Shown: piece by piece, positions 5,421 to 60,861 of the stretch
Layout: the number at the start of each line of letters is the position of its first letter
Numbering within the stretch: position 1 is the stretch's first letter
DNA from: a virus
Direction: 5' to 3' (one strand)
Length of the DNA: 64,000 bases
Virus record (IMG/VR): IMGVR_UViG_3300009103_000003
Location: 64,001 to 128,000 of that record
Translations under genes and position numbers: made by a program
The notes under the pieces: generated by a model
Database searches by the model: none
What the model was told of the DNA's origin: nothing
What the model saw: only the letters and a program-made list of their open reading frames with translations

Positions 5421-5843
5421 CTACTCCAATATCTGCGTTATCCGATTCCTCAGAAAGTGAATAAAACTATCTGACTGTCTATCAGGATTGATATACTCAG
5501 AAAAGAGGGTAATCAATTGTTCTATCTTTTCATCTGATACATCGGAGTCACTAAGGTATTTACTAAGTTCGCTGTTGGCTGCTGCCGAGCCTGAAGATAG
5601 ACTGCGCCTATCTTCATATAACGAGGCAATAACCTCTCTTCCCTCATCTGAATCTAGTGATACCCCTATAACCTTTAATATATGAAACAAGGAGTCATTA
5701 GTCGGTAATACGCTACCGTTCTCTATATTTCTTAAAGTTTCTCGACTTAGGGAGCAATCCCTAGCAAGGGCTCTGCTGGAGCCATAACCAGCAGAAACCC
5801 TCAAGCTTTTGATGACGCTCCCAGTCCTATAAGACTGGTTCAT
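5421..5843 (-). CDS. XRE-family helix-turn-helix regulator
   Basis: IKSLRVSAGYGSSRALARDCSLSRETLRNIENGSVLP. Confidence 0.75.
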   Translation of the reverse strand: MNQSYRTGSVIKSLRVSAGYGSSRALARDCSLSRETLRNIENGSVLPTNDSLFHILKVIGVSLDSDEGREVIASLYEDRRSLSSGSAAANSELSKYLSDSDVSDEKIEQLITLFSEYINPDRQSDSFIHFLRNRITQILE

Positions 5844-49322: not shown

Positions 49323-49493
49323 ATGACCCGACAGTGCAACCACTGCGAGTCTTACTTCTACCAATCGGACGGAAATATCTATTGTCCGTACTGCTGGTCA
49401 ATTCCTAGGCAGAGAATACGCTATACCAATTGTGGCACCTGCGCCTATAGCAACCCCAACGATGGTCCAAAATACCGGGCTTTCAAATACTGA
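49323..49493 (+). CDS. Small Zn-ribbon protein (56 aa); not in ORF track
   Basis: MTRQCNHCESYFYQSDGNIYCPYC fills the intergenic gap; 3' part overlaps the convergent gene. Confidence 0.45.
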   Translation: MTRQCNHCESYFYQSDGNIYCPYCWSIPRQRIRYTNCGTCAYSNPNDGPKYRAFKY

Positions 49494-49817
49494 TGGTTTT
49501 GGTATCGGCTTAGCCATTAGAACGTCTATCTGATTTGACAAGTCTAGAGACCGCTGCCTCTCGCTTTTTAAGACAAGCTCATAGTAGTTTTTCTGACTTA
49601 AAAAGAGGTCTTGGTTGTATTTAAGCTCTAGCTTGAGTTTCGGAATATCCATGCGCAGACAGCGAAGACCTTCTTCTGCGGCTGACGTTGGGAGAAGTAC
49701 ACCCTTACATGGTGACGTAACAGCGGTAGGGGTTTCACACTCTTGTGCGAATGCCGTTGCAGGCATAGACAAGACGATCAACATTACAGACAAATAAACA
49801 CTAATCAGACTTCTCAT
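49398..49817 (-). CDS. Exported protein with signal peptide and C-terminal TM segment (spanin-like partner)
   Basis: AFA-Q signal peptidase I-like site, coiled coil, FWTIVGVAIGAGATIGIAY. Confidence 0.55.
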   Translation of the reverse strand: MRSLISVYLSVMLIVLSMPATAFAQECETPTAVTSPCKGVLLPTSAAEEGLRCLRMDIPKLKLELKYNQDLFLSQKNYYELVLKSERQRSLDLSNQIDVLMAKPIPKPSVFESPVFWTIVGVAIGAGATIGIAYSLPRN

Positions 49818-50193
49818 TTTTCCTCCCCTTTAGGTATTCTGCCCAAGCATTAGCAATCCCCACGGGGCCCTTCTTGGCAGCTTCATCGATTTCTTTATCG
49901 ACTTGTTCGAGTTTCTTCTTCTCGCTTTCGAAGTCCGCTCGAATCTTGGCTCGCTCAGACTCTCTTTTGTCAGATGCTTCCTCCATCGCTTCTGCAAATT
50001 TTTTCTCAATTTGTACCTGCTCTGTTCGGACTTTCAGCTTTCTCTGACTAGAAGCGTACTTCTGGATTAGCCAATAGGCTACCGCAATTAGGGTAAAAAA
50101 TGCCACCATGGCCCAATGAGGAAGTTTTTTAATCGCCTCCCACGATTTCTTTGCGGCGGACTTAGTACCACTCCACAGGTTCAACCAAAACAT
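49801..50193 (-). CDS. Membrane-anchored coiled-coil protein (i-spanin-like; likely start ATG 50193)
   Basis: N-terminal TM segment followed by a long coiled coil; SD GGAGG. Confidence 0.55.
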   Translation of the reverse strand: MFWLNLWSGTKSAAKKSWEAIKKLPHWAMVAFFTLIAVAYWLIQKYASSQRKLKVRTEQVQIEKKFAEAMEEASDKRESERAKIRADFESEKKKLEQVDKEIDEAAKKGPVGIANAWAEYLKGRKNEKSD

Positions 50194-50208
50194 ACACACC
50201 TCCTAGTT

Positions 50209-50238
50209 AAAAATGTGCGGGAGGAAATCCCCCCGCAC
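50209..50238 (-). terminator. Intrinsic terminator after the DUF1257 gene
   Basis: Minus strand GTGCGGGGGG-ATTT-CCTCCCGCAC followed by ATTTTT. Confidence 0.75.
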
Positions 50239-50254
50239 TGTAGTTATTGCAAGG

Positions 50255-50668
50255 CTACCCTTTTGCAACAACTACGATCTTATTACCGTCTTTCTTTACT
50301 TTAGTCACGAGACCTTGTTTCTTCAAAGCCTTCTGAGCAACAACGGCTGCATACCACTGGTTGACACCGGATGAGAATTTAGTCCCAACCTTAGCGCCTA
50401 ATCGACCACCATCATCTAGATCATCAACGTAGACTTGGTAACTCCCGTTCTCGCCTTTAGCGAACCCAACGTCACCGTAACCACCGTGATATGACTTCTT
50501 AATTAGAATTTCTACTTTTGCGGACTGTCGTCCGTACCCCACAAGATCAAGTAGCTCACCAGGGCTAGCGACCTGAATTTCTTCACGGGGGACACCCAGC
50601 TTTTCAAGGGCTGTGATAACTGCATTCTGATCTTTCATGCAGGTCTCACAAGTAATTAGAGCACTCAT
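50255..50668 (-). CDS. DUF1257 (Ycf35-like) protein
   Basis: ITCETCMKDQNAVITALEKLG...DVGFAKGENGSYQVYVDD pattern; co-occurs with Ycf46 AAA and DUF2997. Confidence 0.75.
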   Translation of the reverse strand: MSALITCETCMKDQNAVITALEKLGVPREEIQVASPGELLDLVGYGRQSAKVEILIKKSYHGGYGDVGFAKGENGSYQVYVDDLDDGGRLGAKVGTKFSSGVNQWYAAVVAQKALKKQGLVTKVKKDGNKIVVVAKG

Positions 50669-51279
50669 TGCACCCTCCTTAATTCGTCCAAGGTACTCTT
50701 GTCTGGGAGCCCTGTTATCTTAACAAGGCCGTCTTCCCCACACGAGACTTCTACTCTTGGCAGATTGGTTAAATCAGTCTGCTCATAAGCAGGATTTATG
50801 TATATAATCTCTTGGTTGGATGAGGAAATTAGAGGCTTGTTGCACGCCAACTTTTCTACGTATGGCCCAGAAATGACCATCGAAACAAGGGTTTCATTCA
50901 TAAAGTACGGCATCCGCATGTCTTCCAGATAGCCAGATTTCTCTAGCCGTTCCTTTGTCCACCCAGTAAATATTACTACTGATAGTTCCTTGAACTCATC
51001 TGAAGGACCCCGGTTTAAAGTCAACATGCTTTTAATCATCAGCTTGATGTCCAACCACTGCTCCATAGGCTCTCCACCAGAGATCGTGACCCCGTCTGGG
51101 TTACCGGCTAGGAGCGCACTGGCGGCGTCTAGACGAGAGATCTCCTCACCCCCGGACTCTGGCCATGTGTGTTTGTTGAAGCACCCAGGACAGCCTATGG
51201 TGCATCCCTGAACGTGTAATACATTACGACGCCCAGGACCGTTGACATAACTGTCTCTAGTTATCCCCGCTATCCTCAT
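50665..51279 (-). CDS. Radical SAM protein, NrdG/activase-like (likely start MRIAG)
   Basis: NGPGRR..VQGCTIGCPGCFN (CxxxCxxC), GVTISGGEP. Confidence 0.88.
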   Translation of the reverse strand: MRIAGITRDSYVNGPGRRNVLHVQGCTIGCPGCFNKHTWPESGGEEISRLDAASALLAGNPDGVTISGGEPMEQWLDIKLMIKSMLTLNRGPSDEFKELSVVIFTGWTKERLEKSGYLEDMRMPYFMNETLVSMVISGPYVEKLACNKPLISSSNQEIIYINPAYEQTDLTNLPRVEVSCGEDGLVKITGLPDKSTLDELRRVQ

Positions 51280-51529
51280 CTTGGGCCTCCTCAACATCAG
51301 ACCACAGCAGCCAAGGGGCTATGATTGGTCCATCATCAGGGCTTGCGCACCCGTCACTATCTGGGGCCCAAACGTCAATAGAGATGCCCTCACTATTCGT
51401 GAGGATTCCTATGTCGGCTGATGTTTCACCGTCAGGACTCGTAACTCTTATCCAGACCCGTGCACCTTCGTGTGCTTTAGTACGTTCATACTCGGTGTCG
51501 CCCGTTTGTATCAGGGCGATGCCTTCCAT
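51257..51529 (-). CDS. Hypothetical acidic protein (90 aa)
   Basis: Coupled ORF. Confidence 0.6.
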   Translation of the reverse strand: MEGIALIQTGDTEYERTKAHEGARVWIRVTSPDGETSADIGILTNSEGISIDVWAPDSDGCASPDDGPIIAPWLLWSDVEEAQDEDSGDN

Positions 51530-51714
51530 TATGACCCCGCCTTAACAGTGTCATCTGCTTGCTCATGGTATTCAGGTTTCTTCGTATCTGAAGTAACCTT
51601 TCCGCCTAGAGCTTTAACAACTGCATCGGTGTATTTGGTACACCCCGCGCCTTTGACCCCATCAACCTCTATCTCGGTTGACCCGTCAGGGTTCACTATC
51701 ACTTTGACTTCCAT
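51529..51714 (-). CDS. DUF2997 protein
   Basis: VIVNPDGSTEIEVDGVKGAGCTKYT...KPEY. Confidence 0.8.
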   Translation of the reverse strand: MEVKVIVNPDGSTEIEVDGVKGAGCTKYTDAVVKALGGKVTSDTKKPEYHEQADDTVKAGS

Positions 51715-52552
51715 AGAGTCTCCTCCAGTAACTGTTAAAATTTTGGCCGACTTGCTCAGCGGCTTCGTAGTACCCTGGACCTAAGTTATTTCCCTCAGGA
51801 TCAACAAAGTAAGCCCCAGATTGACGCAGTGTGTCACTAGCAATCAGAGCCCTCAGAAGCTCAAAGTTCCGGTCAAAACCTTTCTGGTTAAATATGAATC
51901 CATATGCGTTGCTTCCTGGCGGTGCGCTCAACGATCTAAACACAGAAAATTCTATCTTTGCGTAAGCCAATTCCCCATATTCTGTTCTTATCTGGTCCCT
52001 CCGATTACGAACCCTGGTGTCACATATATTATTAAGTACACCCTCAAAGGATGAGACAGGTGTCGGCACCAGAGCACCAATTGGAACCCGAAGCTGGCTT
52101 GTAACAAGCACGAGCGCTTCCTTCGCAATAGCTTCTTCACGTAGGGTGGAGAGGCCATGAAAAACAAGCTTTTTCTGTGCATAAGGCTCTCTTGAGCCTA
52201 CAGCGTAATTCAATTCAGTAAATGTTTCTAGGTTGGAAATGCTGTCGATAACGACAACTTTAGCGCCGTGCACCAAGGCAGAGAAAGCAGCTTCAATAGC
52301 TGCCTCCCCAAACCTTGGTGACACGACTACGCAGTCCGTAGGACCAGCGTCACTAAAATATACTTTGTCGGGCAAGCCTTCTGTGTAGACAAGAGCAGTC
52401 GGGTGACCATCAATTGAAGCTTCACGCATCACACTAAGGCATAGGGAGGTTTTGCCGCAAGCATCACCACCCACAATCTCAGACACACCAATCGGGAACC
52501 CCCCAAACAGTGCCTCATCTAACTGGCATACCCCAGTGCGAAACTTCTTCAA
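51686..52552 (-). CDS. RecA/UvsX-like recombinase-fold ATPase
   Basis: TGVCQLDEALFGGFP, GGDACGKT, VVVIDSIS, VLVTSQLR. Confidence 0.8.
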   Translation of the reverse strand: MKKFRTGVCQLDEALFGGFPIGVSEIVGGDACGKTSLCLSVMREASIDGHPTALVYTEGLPDKVYFSDAGPTDCVVVSPRFGEAAIEAAFSALVHGAKVVVIDSISNLETFTELNYAVGSREPYAQKKLVFHGLSTLREEAIAKEALVLVTSQLRVPIGALVPTPVSSFEGVLNNICDTRVRNRRDQIRTEYGELAYAKIEFSVFRSLSAPPGSNAYGFIFNQKGFDRNFELLRALIASDTLRQSGAYFVDPEGNNLGPGYYEAAEQVGQNFNSYWRRLYGSQSDSEP

Positions 52553-54126
52553 CTCATGATTCTCCTTCTGGTCTTTTTACTCGATGGTTTACGAATCTCC
52601 TTTTGGGAGTTGTCGTTTGCCATTATAGCTCGACCAGCCGCCCATTTACGCAGGCCCTCAATTTGAGTCTCCATAGTGGCGGAAAGTGGAACTGTGTTAA
52701 CAGCGGCTGATAGGTAGTCGTCTGCTGTAGGATCTCTTCCTTCAGGAAAAGCTTTATACATACCATCAATAATAATTTGCTCTAGCTCAGCGCCAGAGAA
52801 ACCATCTGTGGCATCGACTAGTGCGGCCATTCCAGTGTCATGTCCGGGGTAATCCCCAGTTAAAACGGAAGGGTCTCTACCGTATCTACCAAGATGGATA
52901 TTGATAATAGACTCCCGGTCTTCTTCCCCCGGAAGATCTACGAAAAACAGCTCATCAAAGCGACCTTTACGCAACATCTCTGGTGGAAGTGCCGATACAT
53001 CATTTGCTGTTGCAACGACGAACACCGGAGATGTCTTTTCTTGCATCCAACTCAGGAAGGAACCGAAGACCCTTGCGGTCGTCCCACTATCGGAGACTCC
53101 TGTAGAACTTCCTAGGCTTTTCTCAAGCTCGTCAATCCACAAGACACAAGGCGCTAAGGCCTCAGCAGTTTTAAGGGCTTTTCGCATGTTCGCTTCTGAT
53201 TGACCAACTAGCGAGCCAAATAGCGAGCCTACATCCATCCTTAAGACGGGCATACCCCAATCATGTCCGATGCACTTTGAGACAAGGCTTTTACCTGTTC
53301 CTGGGATTCCTACAATAAGAACTCCGCGTGGGTTAGGTAGTCCGTACTCTCGTGCTTCTTCACTGAACGAGCCGCCCCGTTGGTGCAGCCACTTCTTCAG
53401 ATTCTCAAGCCCCCCAACAGAGTTCATGTCTCTGTCAACATCGTAGAACTGGAGCACCCCACTCTTTCGGATGATGTGCTTTTTCTCCTCAATGATTATT
53501 TGGGGGTCGAGCATGCTCGCATGGGCTAGAGACTTCGCAAAGACGTTTTCGGCTTCAGCCAATGTTAGTCCGAGTGCTGCGTTTGACCCAATGTCCACCA
53601 TGTTGTTTCTAGCGTCCTCTTGCAAGGTTGCCGTGGCTGCACAGTCGGCCATCAAAAGATGTGCTGTCCCGTTTAGCTCTTGAATACTTGGTAGATCAAA
53701 ATCAACTACTGCAATAAGCTTCTCTAACCGAGGCGGGATCTCAAGCTCAGAGTCAACAATAACGATGTTGATTCCTGGGCCTAGATTAGAAAGGGTATCT
53801 CTCAGCTTACGCTGAACCAAATACTCTGGTCCGGTGTTAAGAAAATTAGCAAAGTCTCGTAATAGGAATACGCCGGATTCTCTATACCCCTGGATATAAT
53901 CCAGAACATCTAGAGGTCCGTCGAGTTCTGAAAGAACATTTTCACCGCAACGGCAACCTTCAGTGATTGACCAAACATGTAATTTGGAATTCAACCCCTG
54001 CTTGTTGTTCCGTCTCTCGATTATTCCTGATAAGCACTGCTCTACCCGACCTTCTTCGTAGGAAACTACAAAGATGGCCGGGTAGGCAGCACGAATCAGA
54101 AGGTCGAGTTCTTCGACCGACCTCAT
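52549..54126 (-). CDS. Ycf46-like AAA+ ATPase
   Basis: VGGLENLKKWL, GIPGTGKS, LWIDELEK, LRKGRFDELFFVDLP, inactive N-terminal AAA-like domain. Confidence 0.9.
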   Translation of the reverse strand: MRSVEELDLLIRAAYPAIFVVSYEEGRVEQCLSGIIERRNNKQGLNSKLHVWSITEGCRCGENVLSELDGPLDVLDYIQGYRESGVFLLRDFANFLNTGPEYLVQRKLRDTLSNLGPGINIVIVDSELEIPPRLEKLIAVVDFDLPSIQELNGTAHLLMADCAATATLQEDARNNMVDIGSNAALGLTLAEAENVFAKSLAHASMLDPQIIIEEKKHIIRKSGVLQFYDVDRDMNSVGGLENLKKWLHQRGGSFSEEAREYGLPNPRGVLIVGIPGTGKSLVSKCIGHDWGMPVLRMDVGSLFGSLVGQSEANMRKALKTAEALAPCVLWIDELEKSLGSSTGVSDSGTTARVFGSFLSWMQEKTSPVFVVATANDVSALPPEMLRKGRFDELFFVDLPGEEDRESIINIHLGRYGRDPSVLTGDYPGHDTGMAALVDATDGFSGAELEQIIIDGMYKAFPEGRDPTADDYLSAAVNTVPLSATMETQIEGLRKWAAGRAIMANDNSQKEIRKPSSKKTRRRIMS

Positions 54127-55047
54127 TTATTCGCCTACTCGAATCTTCTTTCGACGCTTTTTCTTCACGGGTGCTGGGGCTTCTTCCTCAACGACCACAC
54201 CATCGGCCTCGTCAACTCGATACAACATATCTTCCGTATCTAGCTCACAAAAGTACCAACGGATTACTTGGGCCAAGGAACGACGATGTTCTTCATCAAC
54301 ACCGTCAGCATCAGCGGTCGCCAAGAGAGTACGAAGTTCTTCAACTTCTCGCTTAGACCTGTAGGTCTTTGCTCGCTTCCGCTGCTCGGTTGCAGGGATT
54401 CCCTTGTCTTCCGTAGTCAAGATCTGCTCAAGAATCTCTGTCTGCTTAGCAACATCAGGAGTTCCATCTTCCTTCAATACCCGTGACAGCTTCTTAGCCT
54501 GGGTAAGTCGGATGTTCCCGTGTCGCAGAGCTTCAAAAGCCTCCTTGCACAAACCTCGGTAGGTCGAGGTCATGACACTTACCTGAGGCTGTGAAACAGA
54601 TAGCATAGCTGCCACCTCTTCCTGATGCCCAACTCGATCAACGAGCTTGGCAATCGCCTCACACTGGTCTGCGTGATTCAGCGAACTTCGCTGCATATTT
54701 TCACTCAGGTTTAGCGCGAGAGCCTCTTCCAAGGACCCGGTAAATACCGAGCACTGGATTTGGTCATAGAATTTACTTGTATCCTCGTTCGCCTCCTTTA
54801 GAGCAGCACGCTCCTCAGAAATAGCTTGATAACGACGATAACCTGCGAGCAGAACCAGCCTCTCAGCCCCATCCTCGTCCTTATATACTCGGACGATGGG
54901 CGGGTTCAGAAGGCCGTCCCGCTTAATAGAGTCGCGTAGCTCTGCGACCTCGAATGCATTAGCCTTCCGACAATTCTGGAAGCCGTCTGCGTTTCTCTCA
55001 ATGTCGTCAAAATTAAACTTCTTCAGACGTAGTTGACGCTGCGTCAT
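54127..55047 (-). CDS. parB: ParB/Spo0J-like protein
   Basis: LRDSIKRDGLLNPPIV, LLAGYRRYQA, ENMQRSSL, HTH (QEEVAAMLSVSQPQVS); SD AAGGAG. Confidence 0.85.
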   Translation of the reverse strand: MTQRQLRLKKFNFDDIERNADGFQNCRKANAFEVAELRDSIKRDGLLNPPIVRVYKDEDGAERLVLLAGYRRYQAISEERAALKEANEDTSKFYDQIQCSVFTGSLEEALALNLSENMQRSSLNHADQCEAIAKLVDRVGHQEEVAAMLSVSQPQVSVMTSTYRGLCKEAFEALRHGNIRLTQAKKLSRVLKEDGTPDVAKQTEILEQILTTEDKGIPATEQRKRAKTYRSKREVEELRTLLATADADGVDEEHRRSLAQVIRWYFCELDTEDMLYRVDEADGVVVEEEAPAPVKKKRRKKIRVGE

Positions 55048-55195
55048 TAGTTTCTCCTTACTTCGATCTCAGTGATTGTATTATTAAGTTGATATTACTA
55101 CGGGATAATACCGCAATAGCCGAGCAATAGTAATAATCCTCTAGTTTTACCTTTTGTAGCAATATCCACCCAAAGGTCTCAGCAAACATGCTTTT

Positions 55196-55310
55196 TGACA
55201 ACATACTTATTGTCAATGACAAGTCCTGCCTGTCAACTGAAAACATAGTGTTTACCTATATTTAGAGGATGTTTTCCGCTCGGCGGTAGGTGACAACAGA
55301 GTTATTGTCA
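55196..55310. repeat. Left array of TGACA-N(9-10)-TGTCA palindromic boxes
   Basis: Boxes at 55196-55215 (N10), 55217-55235 (N9) and 55291-55310 (N10). Confidence 0.9.
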
Positions 55311-55317
55311 CCCATCC

Positions 55318-56388
55318 TTACTCATCTCCTTTTGTATAGATTGCTCTTCTCCTCCTACCCTGCGCCTTTACTGATGTAGATCCATCAATGAAAGGTTTTA
55401 ATGCCGCAGGGTCCCCAACAACCGTTACAGAACCATCTGGTAGCAGTTGTATCTTAATCCCTGGTAGCTCTAACCAGATTTGGTCAGAGACTGCCGTCAA
55501 CTTTTGTAGACTGGGATAGTACTGCTTCAGGTTCTGAAGCTCTGTTCCCAGAGCCATTAAGGTTGAGGGTCTGGCAGTAGTAGCAATCTCTCCAGAGTCT
55601 CTTCTATGCTTGTGAATAGCTTCTCTCTCTAACCTGTCAAAGTCTGTCCTTCTTAGGGTGTCCATTTCAGTTGTTAGAGTCGTAAACCACTCATTCGCTT
55701 CTATATAGGCTGTCTTTCTACCAGCCTCTAACTTTAATCTTCCAAGCATCTTCCCTAGGATTACTCTTTCTTCTCCTATGGATACCAGCCTCTCCCTTGA
55801 ATTGGAGAATGCTGTTAGGGCTTCCTGTAGTTTTTCATTTGAGTCAACAGGGTCCCCTGATGCTGAACAATACTTTTCTCTTAGCAGTGCAATACCGTTG
55901 GATGTTTCCTGAACGGTTGCTCTAGCTTCTTGGATACCACCTATGAGTGAAGTTACATCTACTTCATCTTTCTCAAGTAACCCACCAAGACTGGCTATAC
56001 GACTTCTAAAGGTAGTCAGAAACTCTCTAGTAAACTTAAATGTATGTAAGCAGCTTTTAGGGTTTCTGGCTAACTTGTCTAGCGCATATTGTTTACCTGT
56101 TACGAAGGGTGGTGTACTTCGGTATGTTTTACATCCCTTCAGAAGGGTAGCTGTTTCAGCATCCATTATTCTAAAAGGCATATAGATATGTACCCAGGCT
56201 TCGTTGTCCTCTTTCCAAAGGTATACGTGCCCACGTTCAATTGGTGTTAAATCTTGCTCATCCCAGGGAGCACCATCTACAGGGTCTATGAAATCATTTC
56301 TAGACCAGCGACTGGTATTTGAGGTAGGATGGCAAACCACTTGGATGTGAGGTTCAGCCCGGATGTTCAAAAGCTCATGTGCTGCCAT
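55318..56388 (-). CDS. Orphan protein (about 356 aa) with coiled coil; lower GC (likely start ATG 56388)
   Basis: GGAGG 5 nt before the ATG; no recognised domain. Confidence 0.75.
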   Translation of the reverse strand: MAAHELLNIRAEPHIQVVCHPTSNTSRWSRNDFIDPVDGAPWDEQDLTPIERGHVYLWKEDNEAWVHIYMPFRIMDAETATLLKGCKTYRSTPPFVTGKQYALDKLARNPKSCLHTFKFTREFLTTFRSRIASLGGLLEKDEVDVTSLIGGIQEARATVQETSNGIALLREKYCSASGDPVDSNEKLQEALTAFSNSRERLVSIGEERVILGKMLGRLKLEAGRKTAYIEANEWFTTLTTEMDTLRRTDFDRLEREAIHKHRRDSGEIATTARPSTLMALGTELQNLKQYYPSLQKLTAVSDQIWLELPGIKIQLLPDGSVTVVGDPAALKPFIDGSTSVKAQGRRRRAIYTKGDE

Positions 56389-56420
56389 TAAACCTCCTTC
56401 GGGGAATAAGTGTGTTAGGG

Positions 56421-56533
56421 TGACAGACATTTGGTTGTCAACACACTTATACCAGATATCTGCTGTAAGTAGCCGTTAAACCTGGATTTCTGTGACAGCT
56501 TTGGGGTTGTCACTGACAACCACCCACTTGTCA
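56421..56533. repeat. Right array of TGACA-N10-TGTCA palindromic boxes
   Basis: Boxes at 56421-56440, 56493-56512 and 56514-56533. Confidence 0.9.
56446..56453 (-). promoter_or_regulatory. Putative promoter element GGTATAAG between the boxes
   Basis: About 58 nt upstream of ATG 56388. Confidence 0.5.
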
Positions 56534-56541
56534 TTAATGAT

Positions 56542-56587
56542 AAAAAACAGAGTAGGGTGGGGACGCGACAAAAGTCACGCCCCCACC
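56542..56587 (-). terminator. Intrinsic terminator after the 273-aa gene
   Basis: 14-bp stem with two G-U pairs and TTTT loop; T-tract a few nt downstream. Confidence 0.75.
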
Positions 56588-56601
56588 ACTAACATAGAAT
56601 A

Positions 56602-57423
56602 TTACTGACCTTCAACCACATTGTTGCTTGGGGTCTTGGAATGCTTCGGTGCAGCGGCCTTCACGGCATACTGACGAACCTTCTTAAACCTGAACCCATG
56701 CTCCCTCATCAAAGAGGTCTGTGCAGTTGACAGAGCAGATGTAATGGCTACCTGACTACTCTCGCTGTCCCAGGCACCCTCAACGCACTTGGCGTAGGTG
56801 GGCTGAACAAACTGAGCGATGTATTCAGGAACATCAACAACCAATTTCAGGCCCCGCTTTTCCGCGAGGTCGGAAAGATAGAATGGAACACCCATCAGGC
56901 CCAACGCCTTTGTGGTGGTCTCATCCATCACCCCCTCCTCCACAGAGAGGCCGGTGCCGCTTGCAACCAAGTCCTTCAGGGCTTCGAAGTTGTGAGGCTT
57001 CTCTTTGGCGTCTCGGTACTTGATAGCACACGAAAGAAACGCACAGATGAACTCCTCACGGGCTCGGGCCTTTTCAGCCTTGGTAGGCTTCTTGGAACCA
57101 CGCTTCCACCCACCCCTGGTGATGAAGTTCAACGCGGCAGAGCCGTCGAAGTAACCATCGCAGGACAGAGTGAACCCGAACTTGCATTGCCAAGTCCGCT
57201 TCCCATCGCTGTACTCTGGAACACCTGAGTAGTAAACCGCCTTGGTATCGGGGTCCACCACACGGAGCATCCGCGTGACAACGTTATTATAAGTAATAGT
57301 AATAACATCTGGTGCCCGCTCCGGGTCAATCAGATTCAGCATAGCTTGCCCCATACCGGGAAGCTTCCATTTGGACTTGTTTGGGCCAGTCTTCTGACCT
57401 TGGTTGTTATCGTTGGTAGCCAT
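56602..57423 (-). CDS. Hypothetical protein (273 aa)
   Basis: SD AGGAG and its own terminator; no recognised domain. Confidence 0.8.
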   Translation of the reverse strand: MATNDNNQGQKTGPNKSKWKLPGMGQAMLNLIDPERAPDVITITYNNVVTRMLRVVDPDTKAVYYSGVPEYSDGKRTWQCKFGFTLSCDGYFDGSAALNFITRGGWKRGSKKPTKAEKARAREEFICAFLSCAIKYRDAKEKPHNFEALKDLVASGTGLSVEEGVMDETTTKALGLMGVPFYLSDLAEKRGLKLVVDVPEYIAQFVQPTYAKCVEGAWDSESSQVAITSALSTAQTSLMREHGFRFKKVRQYAVKAAAPKHSKTPSNNVVEGQ

Positions 57424-57454: not shown

Positions 57455-58120
57455 CTAGCTCGCAGAATTGCGATTTAAGTGGAAGTTGAGGAAGTCTACA
57501 TCCACTGAATAATTTATCTCATCACCGATAATACTTTTGGCAACGAGAGCACAAATAATACTTGAAATGCCATATGCGCAGAAAATTGTGCTTTTTTCTG
57601 TGCACGGTAGCTGCACCGCTTCTTCGTCAGGAAACAGACTTTGGTCGTAGTAGGAAACGCTGTTTGCATTTGATTTGTCTACATAGAAGACAGATCCTTC
57701 ACGCGCTCCCATACGACCGTCCAGGAAATACTTTGCTCCGCTGCTTACAAGAAAGCTTGACCAGATATCTGAGCGAGCAGACATATTGTCCACTGCTGAG
57801 ATTACATAGTCTTCTTGGAAGGTTTCACCCCCCTCGAACTTCCTGTCTTCAGCGATGATTTCCGCACCGGTTCCTTCCGATAGCCGTTGCTGCAAGGCTT
57901 CACATTTCTTATACCCAATTTCGGTCACGAAATAGCCTTGATTGGCTACGTTGTGAGACTCGACATCGTCAAAGTCATAGATGCGTATCTTTCGAATACC
58001 CATCTTGCACAAGGCTTCAGCAACATGGGACCCAATAGCCCCTGCGCCAACAATAGCTACAGAGCGGTTCTGTACGATTTCGTCTGGGATAATTCCGGAC
58101 TGGCGTGTGGTATCAATCAT
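57455..58120 (-). CDS. E1-like ThiF/MoeB adenylating enzyme
   Basis: AIVGAGAIGS, YDFDDVESHNVANQ, VDNMSAR, FLDGRMG, putative catalytic Cys in LPCT. Confidence 0.92.
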   Translation of the reverse strand: MIDTTRQSGIIPDEIVQNRSVAIVGAGAIGSHVAEALCKMGIRKIRIYDFDDVESHNVANQGYFVTEIGYKKCEALQQRLSEGTGAEIIAEDRKFEGGETFQEDYVISAVDNMSARSDIWSSFLVSSGAKYFLDGRMGAREGSVFYVDKSNANSVSYYDQSLFPDEEAVQLPCTEKSTIFCAYGISSIICALVAKSIIGDEINYSVDVDFLNFHLNRNSAS

Positions 58121-59136
58121 ACTGCCACCCCAACCGGCTCATCTTCATCCTCGTCGTCTTCTCCAAACTCTGCTGCTAGGATTTTCTGGACTTCATCGTC
58201 CTGTTCTTCGTCGTCCTTTTTGCTTCCGACGTCGTAGTACAGTCCAGACAACTCATCCAAAATTTCCTCTGTGCTCATTTCTTTTGCGTACCACTTAGAG
58301 TGATATTCAATGACCTCTGTAAGATCTACGATGTTTTCTTCGTAGAGTTCTGCCAGAAGCTCTAGTTCATCGGGCAACCGCAGAGACTCTTTTACGTACT
58401 CAACATTCGCGATCAAGTCATCTTCGTCCGAAGCGCTTTCGCTTTTGTCGTCTCCAGCTTCTTTGCTTTGATGACCGCCGTCCCAGCCGATGTAGTCGTC
58501 GTCCCAGTGGCCGAAGAAGCTCTGGTGGCCGTTTACTTTTCCCGTGTATGAACCGGTAGTGTACTTTCTTGTGTGTTTGACAACATTTAGTTGCGTAGGC
58601 GCGGGTCGAGAGACGTGGTCTTCAACCATCTCCTTTGCCCAGCCGTCCTCCAAGATGCTTACCTGATCAACAGACCATCCACACTTTTCAAAGGAAAACC
58701 TGAACGGGTTGTACATATCTACCCGGACATTGAGGTCTCTCTTTTTGTTGGAGATTACGCTAATACAGACCTTATCAAAATTGAATTCTTCAATTTGTTT
58801 CTCGTCTGTTCCGGAATGACCGGTATCCATATTTACATGGGAGTGCCACCATACACAGATTTGGTCTGAACTTATCCCCTGGTCCCTAAGCTCCAAAGAC
58901 ACATCTGCATAAGAGTCCATATCGAAGACAGTACTGCCCCCAGTGCACTCTTGGTCTGGAACATAGAATTCTAGAACATAGAAAGGCTCTTTAATGCCCC
59001 ACTCATTTCGTTGAGCATCTGTGGCAATAATACCAATTGCTGATATCTCAATTGGGCACTCATCAGTCAATGCTGTCATTTGTTGATATGCTTTTTGTGT
59101 AAATCGGACGGTTGGCTTTGTTAGAACTTTAGTCAT
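58117..59136 (-). CDS. JAB/JAMM metallo-isopeptidase with acidic tail (likely start ATG 59136)
   Basis: Glu in PIEIS; HSH-VNMDTGH-S-GT-D fits HxH-x7-S-x2-D. Confidence 0.92.
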   Translation of the reverse strand: MTKVLTKPTVRFTQKAYQQMTALTDECPIEISAIGIIATDAQRNEWGIKEPFYVLEFYVPDQECTGGSTVFDMDSYADVSLELRDQGISSDQICVWWHSHVNMDTGHSGTDEKQIEEFNFDKVCISVISNKKRDLNVRVDMYNPFRFSFEKCGWSVDQVSILEDGWAKEMVEDHVSRPAPTQLNVVKHTRKYTTGSYTGKVNGHQSFFGHWDDDYIGWDGGHQSKEAGDDKSESASDEDDLIANVEYVKESLRLPDELELLAELYEENIVDLTEVIEYHSKWYAKEMSTEEILDELSGLYYDVGSKKDDEEQDDEVQKILAAEFGEDDEDEDEPVGVAV

Positions 59137-60238
59137 TAGTTCCTCCTGGATTGGTTTGTTGTTGAGCGAAACGGGCTGCATACTCGTTTCTTGAGATGCA
59201 GGGTGTTCCGTTTATTCCTCTATATGATGCTGGCGGGTTTATCGGATGAACGTGATGAACCATGCAGCAGCTATGGCAGTGACCACAGCCGCTAAGGTCT
59301 TCTTGTTCTTGGATAGTTCCGCATTCGTTGCATCTAGGACACTCACAATCCGCCATGATGTGGTTCCCTGACTCACATACAGCGTTGTCCCATCTGTTTG
59401 GGCACCACGCAGATAAGTGTACGTACGGGTTCTCTCTATTATAATGTTGTAGAAAGTCCGTGAGCGTTTCGATTACTTTAGCGATATCCTTAACACCCAT
59501 ATCTTGTATTAGGGTGGGTTGGATATTGCCTAGGCATGCTGCACCATGCTCGTTTAGATGTGGGTGCGGATAGTTTCTCCTGTTACCCTCATCCGGGTTA
59601 ACGCTTTTGCAGTATACAGTGACTCGGTTTCCTCGAACGGGGTCACCGTTGTAAGTTACAGAGCAATCAAATTTACCAAAGTTGTGTGGGAGAACAGATC
59701 CGAAACCATCTTTTATGAAGATATCGTTAGTTCTCCAAGTTAGTTTTTGCTCATCTGCACTGATTGTGGAGAACTTGATTGGGACACGCGTATCGATGAG
59801 ACCCTCAATGAAACGAATCATCAACGCTCTTTTTTCGAAACCATCCTCTGTGTAGATTTCTCCGTTCAACTCCAAGCGCCTTTTTATCTGCGCAATAGCT
59901 CGCTCACACCTTTCCGCTCGGTCTCTTGCCTGAGAAGACTTTGAACTTCGGTCCATAAGCTTTTGTCTGGCAGCACGCGTTCTCGCTCTGGCACGGTCGT
60001 ACTCTGCCTCCTTGGCAGCAAGGCGTTGCTGGGCTCGGGTATAGATAGCCGACCTAGCAGAGACCTTATTGTTGTGCATTCGTTCTGCGGCACGCTCTCT
60101 TTCTAGCGCGGCAGACAATTTTATAAGCTCTTTTGAAGCAAGACTTTCTGAGTCGGTGATGATGGTCTGAAGTTGTTTGGCAATCAGAGCGTCGTCACCA
60201 TTAAAAGTTAGTTCGTAGTTTTTTGCTGTTGATGCCAT
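59129..60238 (-). CDS. E2/UBC-like protein with N-terminal coiled coil and C-terminal Cys/His cluster (likely start ATG 60238)
   Basis: YPHPHLNEHGAACLG resembles UBC HPN..G.xCL; lies between Ubl and JAB genes. Confidence 0.78.
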   Translation of the reverse strand: MASTAKNYELTFNGDDALIAKQLQTIITDSESLASKELIKLSAALERERAAERMHNNKVSARSAIYTRAQQRLAAKEAEYDRARARTRAARQKLMDRSSKSSQARDRAERCERAIAQIKRRLELNGEIYTEDGFEKRALMIRFIEGLIDTRVPIKFSTISADEQKLTWRTNDIFIKDGFGSVLPHNFGKFDCSVTYNGDPVRGNRVTVYCKSVNPDEGNRRNYPHPHLNEHGAACLGNIQPTLIQDMGVKDIAKVIETLTDFLQHYNRENPYVHLSAWCPNRWDNAVCESGNHIMADCECPRCNECGTIQEQEDLSGCGHCHSCCMVHHVHPINPPASYRGINGTPCISRNEYAARFAQQQTNPGGTND

Positions 60239-60249
60239 AGTTTCTCCAC

Positions 60250-60286
60250 AAAAAAATAGCGGATGCCCCCCGAAGGGGACACCCGC
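60250..60286 (-). terminator. Intrinsic terminator between the Ubl and E2 genes
   Basis: GCGGGTGTCCCC-TTCG-GGGGGCATCCGC followed by TATTTTTTT on the minus strand. Confidence 0.88.
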
Positions 60287-60296
60287 CACTTTTATT

Positions 60297-60338
60297 ACTC
60301 GTTATATTATTGGTCAGGTATAACGAGTTTGGGTCAGG
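60297..60338. promoter_or_regulatory. 10-bp inverted repeat plus GGTCAGG direct repeats
   Basis: ACTCGTTATA (60297-60306) and TATAACGAGT (60319-60328); GGTCAGG at 60312 and 60332. Confidence 0.5.
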
Positions 60339-60351
60339 AGACTAGTAACGA

Positions 60352-60861
60352 CTACTGTCGTCCACCAGCAACCTTGTTACCAACCCAAATCTCATGCGGC
60401 CCTTCACCGAGAACGGTGCTGTTCGGGTCCGTAATGTCTGCGGTTTGGCCAGGGCCAACTCGTCGCTTGAAGGTGAGGCTGCGAATATCCCAGCCGCCCT
60501 CTTGCGTATTTAGCGTACTCACGATGTCTCCAAGAGTGGAGTCAGTGCGAACTTCAAGGCAACGGTCAGACTTACCATTTCGGATAAGCGTAACAACACA
60601 CATGTCAGCGGCGCTGACTGTGCTTGTGGACGGGGCGGCGAAGGAGATGTTTCCTCCTCCGTTAACACCACCAGAACCATTAGTTCCGTTGCTGTTCGTT
60701 GCTGATTCAAGTCGGCTTTGCGCCTCGTTTACAGCAGACTGGAGCGCCTGCAAGCGGTCGAGGTTGCTTCGACTGTAGTCTGTTCCCATGTTGGCAACGA
60801 AAGAATCTCGTGCTGAGGTTGCTGACCCCAACGTTTCGTTCAAGTAATCAATGTTTTGCAT
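60352..60861 (-). CDS. Ubiquitin-like (beta-grasp) protein with helical N-terminal extension, ending GG-RQ
   Basis: C-terminal 85 aa follow a beta-grasp pattern and end NKVAGGRQ; SD AAGGAG. Confidence 0.82.
   Translation of the reverse strand: MQNIDYLNETLGSATSARDSFVANMGTDYSRSNLDRLQALQSAVNEAQSRLESATNSNGTNGSGGVNGGGNISFAAPSTSTVSAADMCVVTLIRNGKSDRCLEVRTDSTLGDIVSTLNTQEGGWDIRSLTFKRRVGPGQTADITDPNSTVLGEGPHEIWVGNKVAGGRQ

What the first reader, a model, noticed from the sequence alone, without database searches (positions are those of the whole stretch)
55196..56533. Mirror-image arrays of TGACA-N10-TGTCA boxes bracket an orphan gene next to parB
Seen: six palindromic boxes arranged [double 55196-55235]-55 nt-[single 55291-55310]-gene-[single 56421-56440]-52 nt-[double 56493-56533]. 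Both doubles are joined as TGTCA-N1-TGACA. A 10-base pattern is expected about 0.06 times per 64 kb, yet five exact N10 copies lie within 1.35 kb. Single-to-double centre spacing is about 72-75 bp (about 7 helical turns) on both sides. Known: resolvase res sites use one crossover site plus two accessory sites, and ParB binds clustered palindromic parS sites. Inference: this is an invertible or excisable cassette with res-like ends, a parS cluster, or a looping operator for ParB or the XRE protein.
Basis: partly seen in the sequence, partly recalled or inferred. Interest (0 to 1): 0.85.

Follow-up and report, generated by a model that had tools for sequence, protein, structure and literature searches.

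The report
Mirrored operator arrays around a phage gene
Six 20-bp palindromic protein-binding boxes, set in two mirror-image, helically phased groups of three around one fast-evolving gene of unknown function beside a ParA-less ParB gene, are conserved across a family of uncultured ~180-kb marine phages; they look like an operator or centromere-like control region, not an invertible cassette.

Summary
TGACA-N10-TGTCA occurs five times in this complete 181-kb phage genome, all within 1.35 kb, and a sixth box has an N9 spacer. The layout is [double]-[single]-gene-[single]-[double].

The layout recurs in 13 distinct related phage genomes whose bracketed protein is only 35-66% identical. Spacing is nearly fixed: 21-23 bp within doubles and 71-75 bp (mostly 73) from single to double, about 2 and 7 helical turns. 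Half-site cores are conserved and spacers vary freely, so these are protein-binding sites rather than RNA stems.

The two ~113-bp modules are inverted copies beyond the boxes. The upstream single box sits 5 nt after a conserved TGGTATAAG -10-like element of the bracketed gene. The downstream double sits about 30 bp before a -10-like element of the parB operon.

The genome has no resolvase, integrase or ParA match. The gene never varies in orientation or presence, so the cassette reading is not supported.

The binder is unresolved. My best guess (about 45%) is the adjacent ParB-family HTH protein, which has intact GxxRxxA and ENxQR motifs and an invariant recognition helix. About 25% goes to the bracketed 356-aa protein acting as an autoregulator, in the manner of lambda cI or F RepE. 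It has no known fold.

I class this as a new variant of a known kind. Other first-stage notes of this scan flagged the same stretch.

The parts
56514..56533 (.). Upstream double, outer box (TGACAACCACCCACTTGTCA)
   Evidence: Exact match. The position is conserved in relatives.
56493..56512 (.). Upstream double, inner box, 21 bp from its partner
56465..56473 (-). Conserved GCTACTTAC element in the upstream spacer. A mirrored ACTTAC/ATTTAG counterpart lies in the downstream spacer.
   Evidence: Alignment of 7-9 genomes. Its function is unknown.
56446..56454 (-). TGGTATAAG, an extended -10-like element. It is invariant in the relatives aligned and ends 5 nt before the single box.
   Evidence: That it is a promoter is inferred, not shown.
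56421..56440 (.). Upstream single box, over the predicted transcription start of the bracketed gene. It starts 72 bp from the inner box of the double.
55318..56388 (-). Bracketed gene, 356 aa, no Pfam, PHROG or NCBIfam match. It evolves fast and its family counts about 100 clusters at 50% identity.
55291..55310 (.). Downstream single box, 8 nt after the stop codon
55217..55235 (.). Downstream double, inner box (N9 variant)
55196..55215 (.). Downstream double, outer box, next to the parB leader
55161..55168 (-). TGGATATT, a -10-like element about 30 bp after the downstream double. A comparable element (TGGATATAAG, GATATT, TGGTAATAA) sits at this place in most relatives.
   Evidence: by inspection only.
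54127..55047 (-). ParB-family gene, 306 aa: ParB_N plus HTH_ParB, GYRRYQA and ENMQR motifs, basic C-terminal tail. It is the first gene of the ParB-AAA-RecA-like operon.
56542..56589 (-). Intrinsic terminator-like hairpin with a T run. It ends the upstream operon just before the upstream double.
   Evidence: Read from the sequence. A hairpin sits at the same place in relatives. The consensus scan did not list it.

Best explanation
The six boxes are binding sites for a dimeric, sequence-specific DNA-binding protein encoded by the phage. Together they form a bipartite operator or centromere-like control region.

Each ~113-bp module places three dimers on one face of the helix. The two modules are inverted copies about 1.13 kb apart and enclose the 356-aa gene.

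The most likely binder is the ParB-family HTH protein encoded just downstream. It has no ParA partner, so it would act like KorB, VirB or Noc rather than as a partition protein.

Inferred consequences:
- Occupying the upstream single box blocks the start of the bracketed gene's transcript.
- The doubles sit upstream of both -10-like elements and tune both promoters.
- Bridging, or CTP-dependent clamp loading from both sides, shuts in or times the expression of the enclosed gene and autoregulates the parB-AAA-RecA-like operon.

Shown here: the sites, their uniqueness, their conservation and phasing, and the ParB fold motifs. Inferred: the promoters, the binder, and the looping or silencing.
For: Sites and architecture:
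- The motif is unique to this locus in 181 kb.
- It is the only recurrent palindrome family in the genome, and the only palindrome conserved within about 5 kb either side of the gene in 7 genomes.
- The architecture is kept in 13 distinct genomes: WIN, L005, L011, L007, L012, L009, L013, L019, L021, L030, L031, L033 and L034. Box spacing is 21-23 bp within doubles and 71-75 bp (mostly 73) from single to double.
- In the logo C4 and A5 are invariant, T1, G2, A3 and R6 are strong, and the central 8 bp are free apart from a W preference.
- In L005 and L011 the arms do not stay complementary, which argues against RNA stems.
- In L033, 11 of 12 half-sites switched together from TGACAAC to TGTCAAC. 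That is expected for co-evolution with one reader protein.
- The modules are inverted repeats beyond the boxes.

Promoter context:
- The -10-like TGGTATAAG is invariant and abuts the single box.

ParB as the binder:
- It matches ParB_N and HTH_ParB.
- A profile of the family hits Spo0J 1vz0 across both domains, E = 1.6e-6.
- GYRRYQA, ENxQR and the helix SQPQVS are invariant wherever the TGACAR boxes occur.
- Helix variants track box variants by clade: SQPNVSQM with TGACAACC, SQPWVSQQ with ACAAC-N6-GTTGT, KQPTVSGY with no TGACA boxes.
Against: - No binding was tested.
- The helix-to-box correlation is confounded by phylogeny.
- L033 changed position 3 in all its boxes, yet its ParB recognition helix is identical to that of L031 and L034. 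Only one residue that is invariant elsewhere differs, I302M in the tail.
- L005 has relaxed boxes although its ParB is 84% identical to the window's and the helix is unchanged.
- In the L026/L038 lineage, ten GGACAGC half-sites lie next to the homologue of the bracketed gene, and the next five genes show no ParB.
- Known parS, OB and NBS sites are contiguous 13-16-bp palindromes, not 5-7-bp arms 8-10 bp apart (my knowledge).
- Strict helical phasing is not a known property of parS clusters.
Confidence: 0.45

Rival explanations
1. The bracketed 356-aa protein itself binds the boxes. It would be an autoregulated DNA-binding protein of a new fold, flanked by its own sites as lambda cI is by OL and OR, or as F RepE and P1 RepA are by iteron arrays beside the sop/par genes. 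It could be a repressor or an origin or iteron-binding protein. The ParB-like gene would then simply be the next operon under its control.
For: - The boxes always bracket this gene, and the upstream single box lies at its predicted transcript start.
- In L026/L038 a 22-bp-period array with a similar half-site stays beside this gene without an adjacent ParB.
- In L027 the only three ACAAC-N6-GTTGT sites in 8.3 kb flank it.
- The protein diverges 2-3 times faster than ParB, in step with drifting box details.
- It has conserved basic features: REREAIHKHR and a C-terminal RRRRxI tail.
- Its N-domain gives weak matches to the DNA-binding XPB DRD and T4 UvsW N-domains: Z 5.1-5.6, rmsd 2.3-2.8, 54-66 residues aligned.
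Against: - No HTH, RHH, winged-helix or Rep_3 signature: Pfam, PHROG and NCBIfam give nothing.
- No PDB sequence hit.
- Fold matches are a generic three-helix bundle (Z 12.6, helical) and N-domain hits with Z of 6 or less, below the tool's trust level.
- The half-site core is unchanged between clades whose proteins are only about 36% identical.
- No DnaA box at the locus, and no GC-skew turning point there.
Confidence: 0.25
2. Another factor reads the boxes: a host regulator, a different phage protein such as the distant XRE HTH or a virion-delivered factor, or a ParB-orphan heterocomplex. The mirrored modules would then serve a function other than simple repression, such as convergent or antisense transcription control, an insulator, or a replication or recombination hot spot.
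For: - Neither local candidate shows decisive covariation with the L033 switch.
- The mirrored spacers share further conserved elements (AAAAC.TAG, ACTTAC) that the box reader does not explain.
- One XRE HTH exists in the genome.
Against: - A host regulator would be expected to have sites elsewhere in 181 kb, and none exist.
- Concerted box changes within single phage lineages point to a phage-encoded, co-evolving reader.
- The XRE gene is 50 kb away.
Confidence: 0.25
3. This is an invertible or excisable cassette whose mirrored arrays are res-like recombination sites.
For: The modules are true inverted repeats of about 113 bp, each with three sites. The enclosed gene has a lower GC3 (0.37) than its neighbours (0.43-0.62).
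Against: - No serine or tyrosine recombinase match in the complete genome.
- All boxes share one geometry, unlike res subsites I-III.
- The gene is present in the same place and orientation in 13 genomes that have diverged to 35% identity.
- No contig was found that joins the upstream 273-aa gene directly to parB.
Confidence: 0.03

Closest known systems
ParB-parS and the ParA-independent ParB-family regulators: KorB with OB sites on RK2, VirB, Noc
   Same: - A ParB_N plus HTH protein with intact GxxRxxA and ENxxR motifs is encoded beside clustered palindromic sites that are unique in the replicon.
- KorB shows that a ParB-type CTP clamp can silence promoters at a distance (PMC11790492).
- Orphan ParB-like proteins are common and repurposed in phages (PMC12704722, PMC13229309).
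   Different: - No ParA match, and no N-terminal ParA-activating motif seen.
- The sites have 5-7-bp arms split by 8-10 free bases, instead of a contiguous 13-16-bp palindrome.
- There are six sites at strict 2-turn and 7-turn spacing, in two inverted modules around another gene.
- Binding and CTP use are untested.
Lambdoid immunity region (OL1-3, cI, OR3-1)
   Same: Two tripartite sets of dyad-symmetric operators in mirror arrangement flank one gene 1-2 kb long. One operator overlaps that gene's own promoter. Long-range looping between the sets is the known mechanism in lambda (my knowledge).
   Different: - The enclosed protein has no HTH or S24 peptidase domain.
- All flanking genes are co-directional, with no divergent PL/PR pair.
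- Operator spacing is 21 + 73 bp rather than three adjacent sites.
- The genome shows no integrase.
Iteron-flanked initiator genes beside partition genes (mini-F incB-repE-incC-sopAB; P1 incC-repA-incA-parAB)
   Same: Repeated binding sites lie on both sides of one gene, directly upstream of a parB-type gene. The L026 lineage has a 22-bp-period direct-repeat array like iterons.
   Different: - No Rep_3-like fold or Pfam hit.
- The boxes are palindromes, not direct repeats, in most lineages.
- No DnaA boxes.
- No ParA match.
Tn3/gamma-delta res sites
   Same: Three dimer-binding sites per module, and a TGTC-containing half-site.
   Different: No resolvase. Equal spacing in all boxes. The outer-end sequence is TGACA rather than TGTCY. 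No structural polymorphism.

Membership tests
Serine-resolvase res site / invertible cassette | A resolvase or invertase gene in or beside the element | tested here: not met
   PF00239 and PF00589 give no match in the complete 181-kb genome, while the control genomes do match.
Serine-resolvase res site / invertible cassette | Three subsites with different half-site spacings (crossover plus accessory sites) | tested here: not met
   All boxes are N10, with one N9 in the window. The same geometry holds in relatives.
Serine-resolvase res site / invertible cassette | Both orientations, or presence and absence, seen among relatives | tested here: not met
   Same orientation and presence in 13 genomes. 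Read-level data were not available.
ParABS partition system | A ParA (Walker-type) ATPase partner | tested here: not met
   PF13614 finds nothing in the genome. The gene upstream of parB has no Walker or other family match.
ParABS partition system | ParB with the ParB/Srx N-domain motifs (GxxRxxA, ENxxR) and an HTH | tested here: met
   PF02195 scores 26.6 bits against a cut-off of 26.3. PF17762 scores 20.1 bits, below its cut-off of 22.6. The family profile hits Spo0J 1vz0 at E = 1.6e-6 across both domains. GYRRYQA and ENMQR are conserved.
ParABS partition system | parS: a contiguous ~16-bp palindrome bound by ParB | tested here: inconclusive
   The sites are palindromic and unique to the locus, but they are split 20-mers. 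Binding was not testable.
ParB-family CTP-switch regulators (KorB, VirB, Noc-like) | CTP binding and site-stimulated clamp closure | not testable with these tools
   Only the sequence motifs can be seen.
Lambdoid immunity region | The enclosed gene encodes an HTH repressor with an S24 autocleavage domain | tested here: not met
   No Pfam, NCBIfam or PHROG match. The model shows beta domains plus a three-helix bundle.
Iteron replicon (Rep_3 type) | An initiator with paired winged-helix domains, direct-repeat iterons, an AT-rich region and DnaA boxes | tested here: inconclusive
   No Rep_3 hit. The fold searches list no winged-helix match, which does not exclude one. No DnaA box lies at the locus. 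The intergenic region is 38.5% GC. An iteron-like array is seen only in L026.

The most novel reading that the evidence does not exclude
A ParA-less ParB-type nucleotide switch, or alternatively a DNA-binding protein of an undescribed fold, assembles on two inverted, helically phased three-site modules. It thereby encloses and controls a single rapidly diversifying gene. This would be a phage-borne long-range silencing or insulating device that is conserved, with drifting site specificity, across a large clade of uncultured 170-190-kb phages.
Probability: 0.3. Interest if true: 0.7.

Novelty: new variant of a known kind. Interest (0 to 1): 0.55.

Why it matters
Orphan ParB-like genes are very common in phages, and their roles are only starting to be worked out (PMC12704722, PMC13229309). 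This locus offers a defined, unique and conserved DNA target next to such a gene. It has precise geometry (2 and 7 helical turns, mirrored modules) and natural specificity variants in L005/L011, L033, L027 and L026.

That makes a clean test case for three questions:
- Does a phage ParB act as a site-loaded transcriptional switch?
- Does the bracketed protein family, about 100 clusters with no annotation, form a new class of DNA-binding regulator?
- How do operator and reader co-evolve?

The locus also separates two conserved operons of unknown role: Ubl-E2-JAB-E1, and ParB-AAA-RecA-like-DUF2997-radical SAM-DUF1257. It probably sets their timing.

Tried and rejected
Searches that found nothing useful:
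- DNA similarity to cultured phages: none.
- The bracketed protein by tblastn against cultured phages: none.
- The first IMG/VR scan with the single protein: nothing.
- Literature search for the motif string: 0 papers.
- Rfam on 54800-56800 at E up to 1: no match.

Fold and feature searches on the bracketed protein:
- Full model against PDB and BFVD with Foldseek: no match at E of 0.001 or better.
- VIA wide search: only spectrin-like three-helix bundles for residues 141-271.
- N-domain alone: best Z 6.0.
- ESM Atlas by features and by structure: nothing usable.

- Complex prediction for ParB with the bracketed protein was unavailable, so nothing was folded.
- The atlas fold library was unavailable.
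- The genome search could not reach the L026/L037 records, so absence of ParB in that lineage is not established.

Analyses that gave no answer:
- The covariation test (residues invariant in all TGACA-type genomes but changed in L033) gave 1 ParB and 2 orphan positions, none convincing.
- GC skew turns at a strand switch near window 47-49 kb, not at the boxes.
- DnaA-box search: no site at the locus.

Readings set aside:
- RNA hairpins: the arms are conserved in sequence and lose complementarity in L005 and L011, and the upstream double lies between a terminator and the -10-like element.
- A packaging site like lambda cosB (R3-I1-R2-R1): considered and set aside, because the record's terminal repeats are far from this locus.
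Full report
**1.

The pattern TGACA-N10-TGTCA has five exact copies in the 64-kb window, at 55196, 55291, 56421, 56493 and 56514. Dinucleotide-preserving shuffles expect 0.05, and 0 of 100 shuffles reach five. A sixth box at 55217-55235 has a 9-base spacer. No N11 copy exists.

The window is bases 64001-128000 of a 181,199-bp virus record with direct terminal repeats, rated complete. That whole genome contains the same five sites and no others, and the reversed-pattern control gives none. The only one-mismatch sites elsewhere are four scattered ones. A scan for any recurrent palindrome (6- or 7-base arms, gaps 0-12) shows no other palindrome family clustered at one locus in the genome.

**2. 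Local anatomy**

All genes here are on the minus strand. In the direction of transcription the order is:
- a ThiF/E1-like gene (57455-58120);
- a 273-aa gene with no family match (56602-57423);
- a GC-rich hairpin followed by a T run (about 56542-56589), read from the sequence. The consensus scan did not list it;
- the upstream double (56533-56493);
- a 52-nt spacer;
- the upstream single box (56440-56421);
- an AAGGAGG ribosome-binding site and an ATG at 56388;
- the 356-aa gene (to 55318);
- the downstream single box, 8 nt after the stop codon (55310-55291);
- a 55-nt spacer;
- the downstream double (55235-55196);
- a leader of about 150 nt that is AT-rich (the intergenic region is 38.5% GC);
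- a 306-aa ParB-family gene (55047-54127), followed by an AAA+ ATPase gene and a RecA-like gene.

The longer 370-aa ORF from 56430 would start inside the single box. Relatives align from the 56388 start.

**3. Conservation**

The bracketed protein has 12 close homologues at 38-66% identity. They lie on marine metagenome contigs of 166-182 kb with the same gene order. Profile searches with the ParB-like protein brought in further loci.

After removing duplicates there are 13 distinct genomes: the window, L005, L011, L007, L012, L009, L013, L019, L021, L030, L031, L033 and L034. Each carries six boxes in the order double-single-gene-single-double.

Start-to-start spacing is 21 bp within doubles (22-23 in a few). 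From single to nearest double box it is 73 bp (71-75). The distance between the two single boxes varies from 1128 to 1147 bp with gene length. Taking 10.4-10.5 bp per turn, 21 bp and 73 bp are 2 and 7 turns, so the three sites of a module face the same side of the helix.

In a two-strand logo of 52 boxes:
- C4 and A5 are invariant;
- A3, G2 and T1 carry 1.6, 1.4 and 1.25 bits;
- position 6 is a purine;
- the inner eight bases are free, apart from an A/T preference at position 9.

No other palindrome is shared within about 5 kb either side of the gene in seven genomes.

**4. Protein sites, not RNA stems**

The arm sequences are conserved as sequences across genomes whose bracketed proteins are about 36% identical. 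There is no compensatory drift.

In L005 and L011 the boxes relax to forms such as TAACAG..CTGCTA or TGGCAG..CTGCGC. The two arms are then no longer complementary, yet CAG-N8-CTG and the positions are kept.

The upstream double lies between the terminator-like hairpin and the -10-like element, so it is probably not transcribed. Rfam finds nothing.

L033 is especially telling. Eleven of its twelve half-sites read TGTCAAC instead of TGACAAC, while its closest relatives L031 and L034 keep TGACAAC or TGGCAAC. A concerted change like this in dispersed short sites is what co-evolution with one reader protein produces.

**5. The modules are inverted repeats beyond the boxes**

When the downstream module is reverse-complemented, its double-proximal spacer half aligns with the upstream spacer. 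Both carry an A-tract motif (AAAAC.TAG) a few bases after the double, and an ACTTAC-like element about 25 nt before the single box. This holds in nine genomes.

The single-proximal half differs. Upstream it holds TGGTATAAG, which is invariant in the relatives aligned and ends 5 nt before the single box. Downstream only remnants are seen (TGGTG, GGATG).

I read TGGTATAAG as an extended -10 element of the bracketed gene's promoter. That places the single box over the transcript start and the doubles centred near -63 and -84. This is inference. An earlier, unchecked note says the phage carries its own RNA polymerase and a sigma-like gene, so the promoter logic may differ.

About 30 bp beyond the downstream double, most genomes have another -10-like element: TGGATATT here (55168-55161), and TGGATATAAG, GATATT or TGGTAATAA elsewhere. 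It lies ahead of parB.

**6. Not a recombination cassette**

The complete genome has no match to Resolvase or Phage_integrase, while the control genomes do. All boxes share one geometry, unlike res subsites.

The gene is present, in the same place and in the same orientation as parB, in every relative. No contig was found that joins the upstream 273-aa gene directly to parB.

The gene's GC3 (0.37) is lower than that of its neighbours (0.43-0.62). Given its fixed position across deep divergence, this does not indicate recent insertion.

**7. Candidate readers: the ParB-like protein**

It matches ParB_N and HTH_ParB. A profile of seven family members hits Thermus Spo0J (1vz0) over both domains at E = 1.6e-6, and also Myxococcus and Caulobacter ParB and Noc.

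The nucleotide-pocket motifs are present (AGYRRYQA for GxxRxxA, and ENMQRSSLN). The second HTH helix, SQPQVS, is invariant in all genomes with TGACAR boxes.

No ParA-type ATPase (AAA_31) match is found in the genome, so classical partition is unlikely. A ParA-independent role is plausible, as in KorB (PMC11790492) or the repurposed phage ParB-like proteins (PMC12704722, PMC13229309).

Helix variants track box variants by clade:
- SQPNVSQM with TGACAACC-N4-GGTTGTCA (L031, L033, L034);
- SQPWVSQQ with ACAAC-N6-GTTGT (L027);
- KQPTVSGY with no TGACA boxes and a weak ATCGGC enrichment (L023).

This correlation is confounded by phylogeny.

Points against the ParB-like protein:
- L033's switch is not accompanied by any change in the recognition helix. 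Only one residue that is invariant elsewhere differs, in the C-terminal tail.
- L005 has relaxed boxes although its ParB is 84% identical to the window's.

**8. Candidate readers: the bracketed protein**

It has no Pfam, PHROG, NCBIfam or PDB sequence match.

An AlphaFold model built on 13 sequences (mean pLDDT 80) shows:
- an N-terminal beta/alpha domain;
- a three-helix bundle (residues 141-265);
- a small C-terminal beta domain;
- a disordered basic tail, RRRRxI.

Fold searches give only generic spectrin-like bundles (Z up to 12.6, which the tool warns is uninformative for helical bundles). The N-domain folded alone (pLDDT 93.6) gives at best Z 6.0 to ACT-like domains. It gives Z 5.1-5.6 to the DNA-binding N-domains of XPB and T4 UvsW (rmsd 2.3-2.8, 54-66 residues aligned). 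All are below the level the tool advises trusting.

The family is large: 100 clusters at 50% identity, nearly all 340-370 aa. Distant members keep the neighbourhood ThiF - ~230-aa gene - this gene - ParB - AAA - RecA-like.

- the bracketing itself;
- the single box at its own predicted transcript start;
- L027, where the only three ACAAC-N6-GTTGT sites in 8.3 kb flank it;
- the L026/L038 lineage, where ten GGACAGC half-sites at a 22-bp period lie just downstream and the next five genes are not ParB-like. I could not check whether ParB is encoded elsewhere in that phage.

The protein diverges 2-3 times faster than ParB at short distances. That fits an arms-race or specificity-drifting protein. 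It fits less well with a reader of an invariant half-site core.

**9. Verdict**

I am confident (about 0.8) that this is a conserved, phage-encoded nucleoprotein control region. It consists of six dimer sites in two inverted, in-phase modules, placed at the boundary between two operons and around one gene. It is not a mobile or invertible cassette.

Which protein reads it is open. My estimates are:
- about 45% the ParB-like protein, acting as a ParA-less site-specific switch that represses or silences the enclosed gene and autoregulates its own operon;
- about 25% the enclosed protein, as an autoregulator of a new fold;
- about 25% another factor or a joint complex;
- about 3% recombination.

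The closest known architectures are ParB-family operator and parS clusters (KorB), the lambdoid OL-cI-OR immunity region, and iteron-flanked rep genes next to par genes in F and P1. The locus meets no full membership test for any of these. I therefore class it as a new variant of a known kind.

Other first-stage notes of this scan flagged the same stretch.

Noticed in passing
window 57455-60861 (minus strand) and 49398-55047: The box locus separates two conserved operons. Downstream is ParB-like, AAA+, RecA-like, DUF2997, radical SAM, DUF1257. The order ThiF, ~230-270-aa gene, bracketed gene, ParB, AAA, RecA-like is kept even in relatives at E = 1e-19.
   Followed up: partly
window 55085-55140 (minus strand, parB leader): The leader holds an imperfect inverted repeat, GGATTATTACTA ... 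TAGTAATATC, around a block (GCTCGGC..TATTGCGGTA) that is partly conserved in L005, L011 and L007 but absent in the L012/L009 clade. It could be an RNA leader structure or a second protein site.
   Followed up: no
window 55276-55286: A small hairpin, CCGC-CGA-GCGG, lies just after the downstream single box. L005 has CTGC-CGA-GCAG, a compensatory C-G to T-A change.
   Followed up: no
window 54127-54165 and 55318-55360 (C-termini of both proteins): The ParB-like and the bracketed protein both end in a conserved arginine/lysine tail followed by I/V: KKRRKKIRVGE and RRRRAIYTKGDE. This may be a shared DNA-contact or partner-binding peptide.
   Followed up: no
L026:1463-1704 (also L038, L025/L037): A distant lineage has an iteron-like array. 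Ten GGACAGC half-sites lie within about 210 bp, mostly direct repeats at a 22-bp period, downstream of the homologue of the bracketed gene, with no ParB among the next five genes.
   Followed up: partly
window 52549-54126: The AAA+ ATPase matches phrog_8638 at E = 9e-130. It is 33% identical over 95% of its length to 'AAA-ATPase' genes of many Mycobacterium phages (Bora, Ryadel and others), and it also hits Vibrio and Pseudomonas phages.
   Followed up: no
window 5652-5813 (minus strand): This is the only XRE-type HTH (PF01381, 30.4 bits) in the 181-kb genome. It lies in a 144-aa open frame about 50 kb from the boxes.
   Followed up: no
P0031 (ParB-like homologue, 63% identity): One homologue is labelled by NCBI as coming from an Alteromonadaceae metagenome-assembled genome. 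This is a weak hint at the host group.
   Followed up: no
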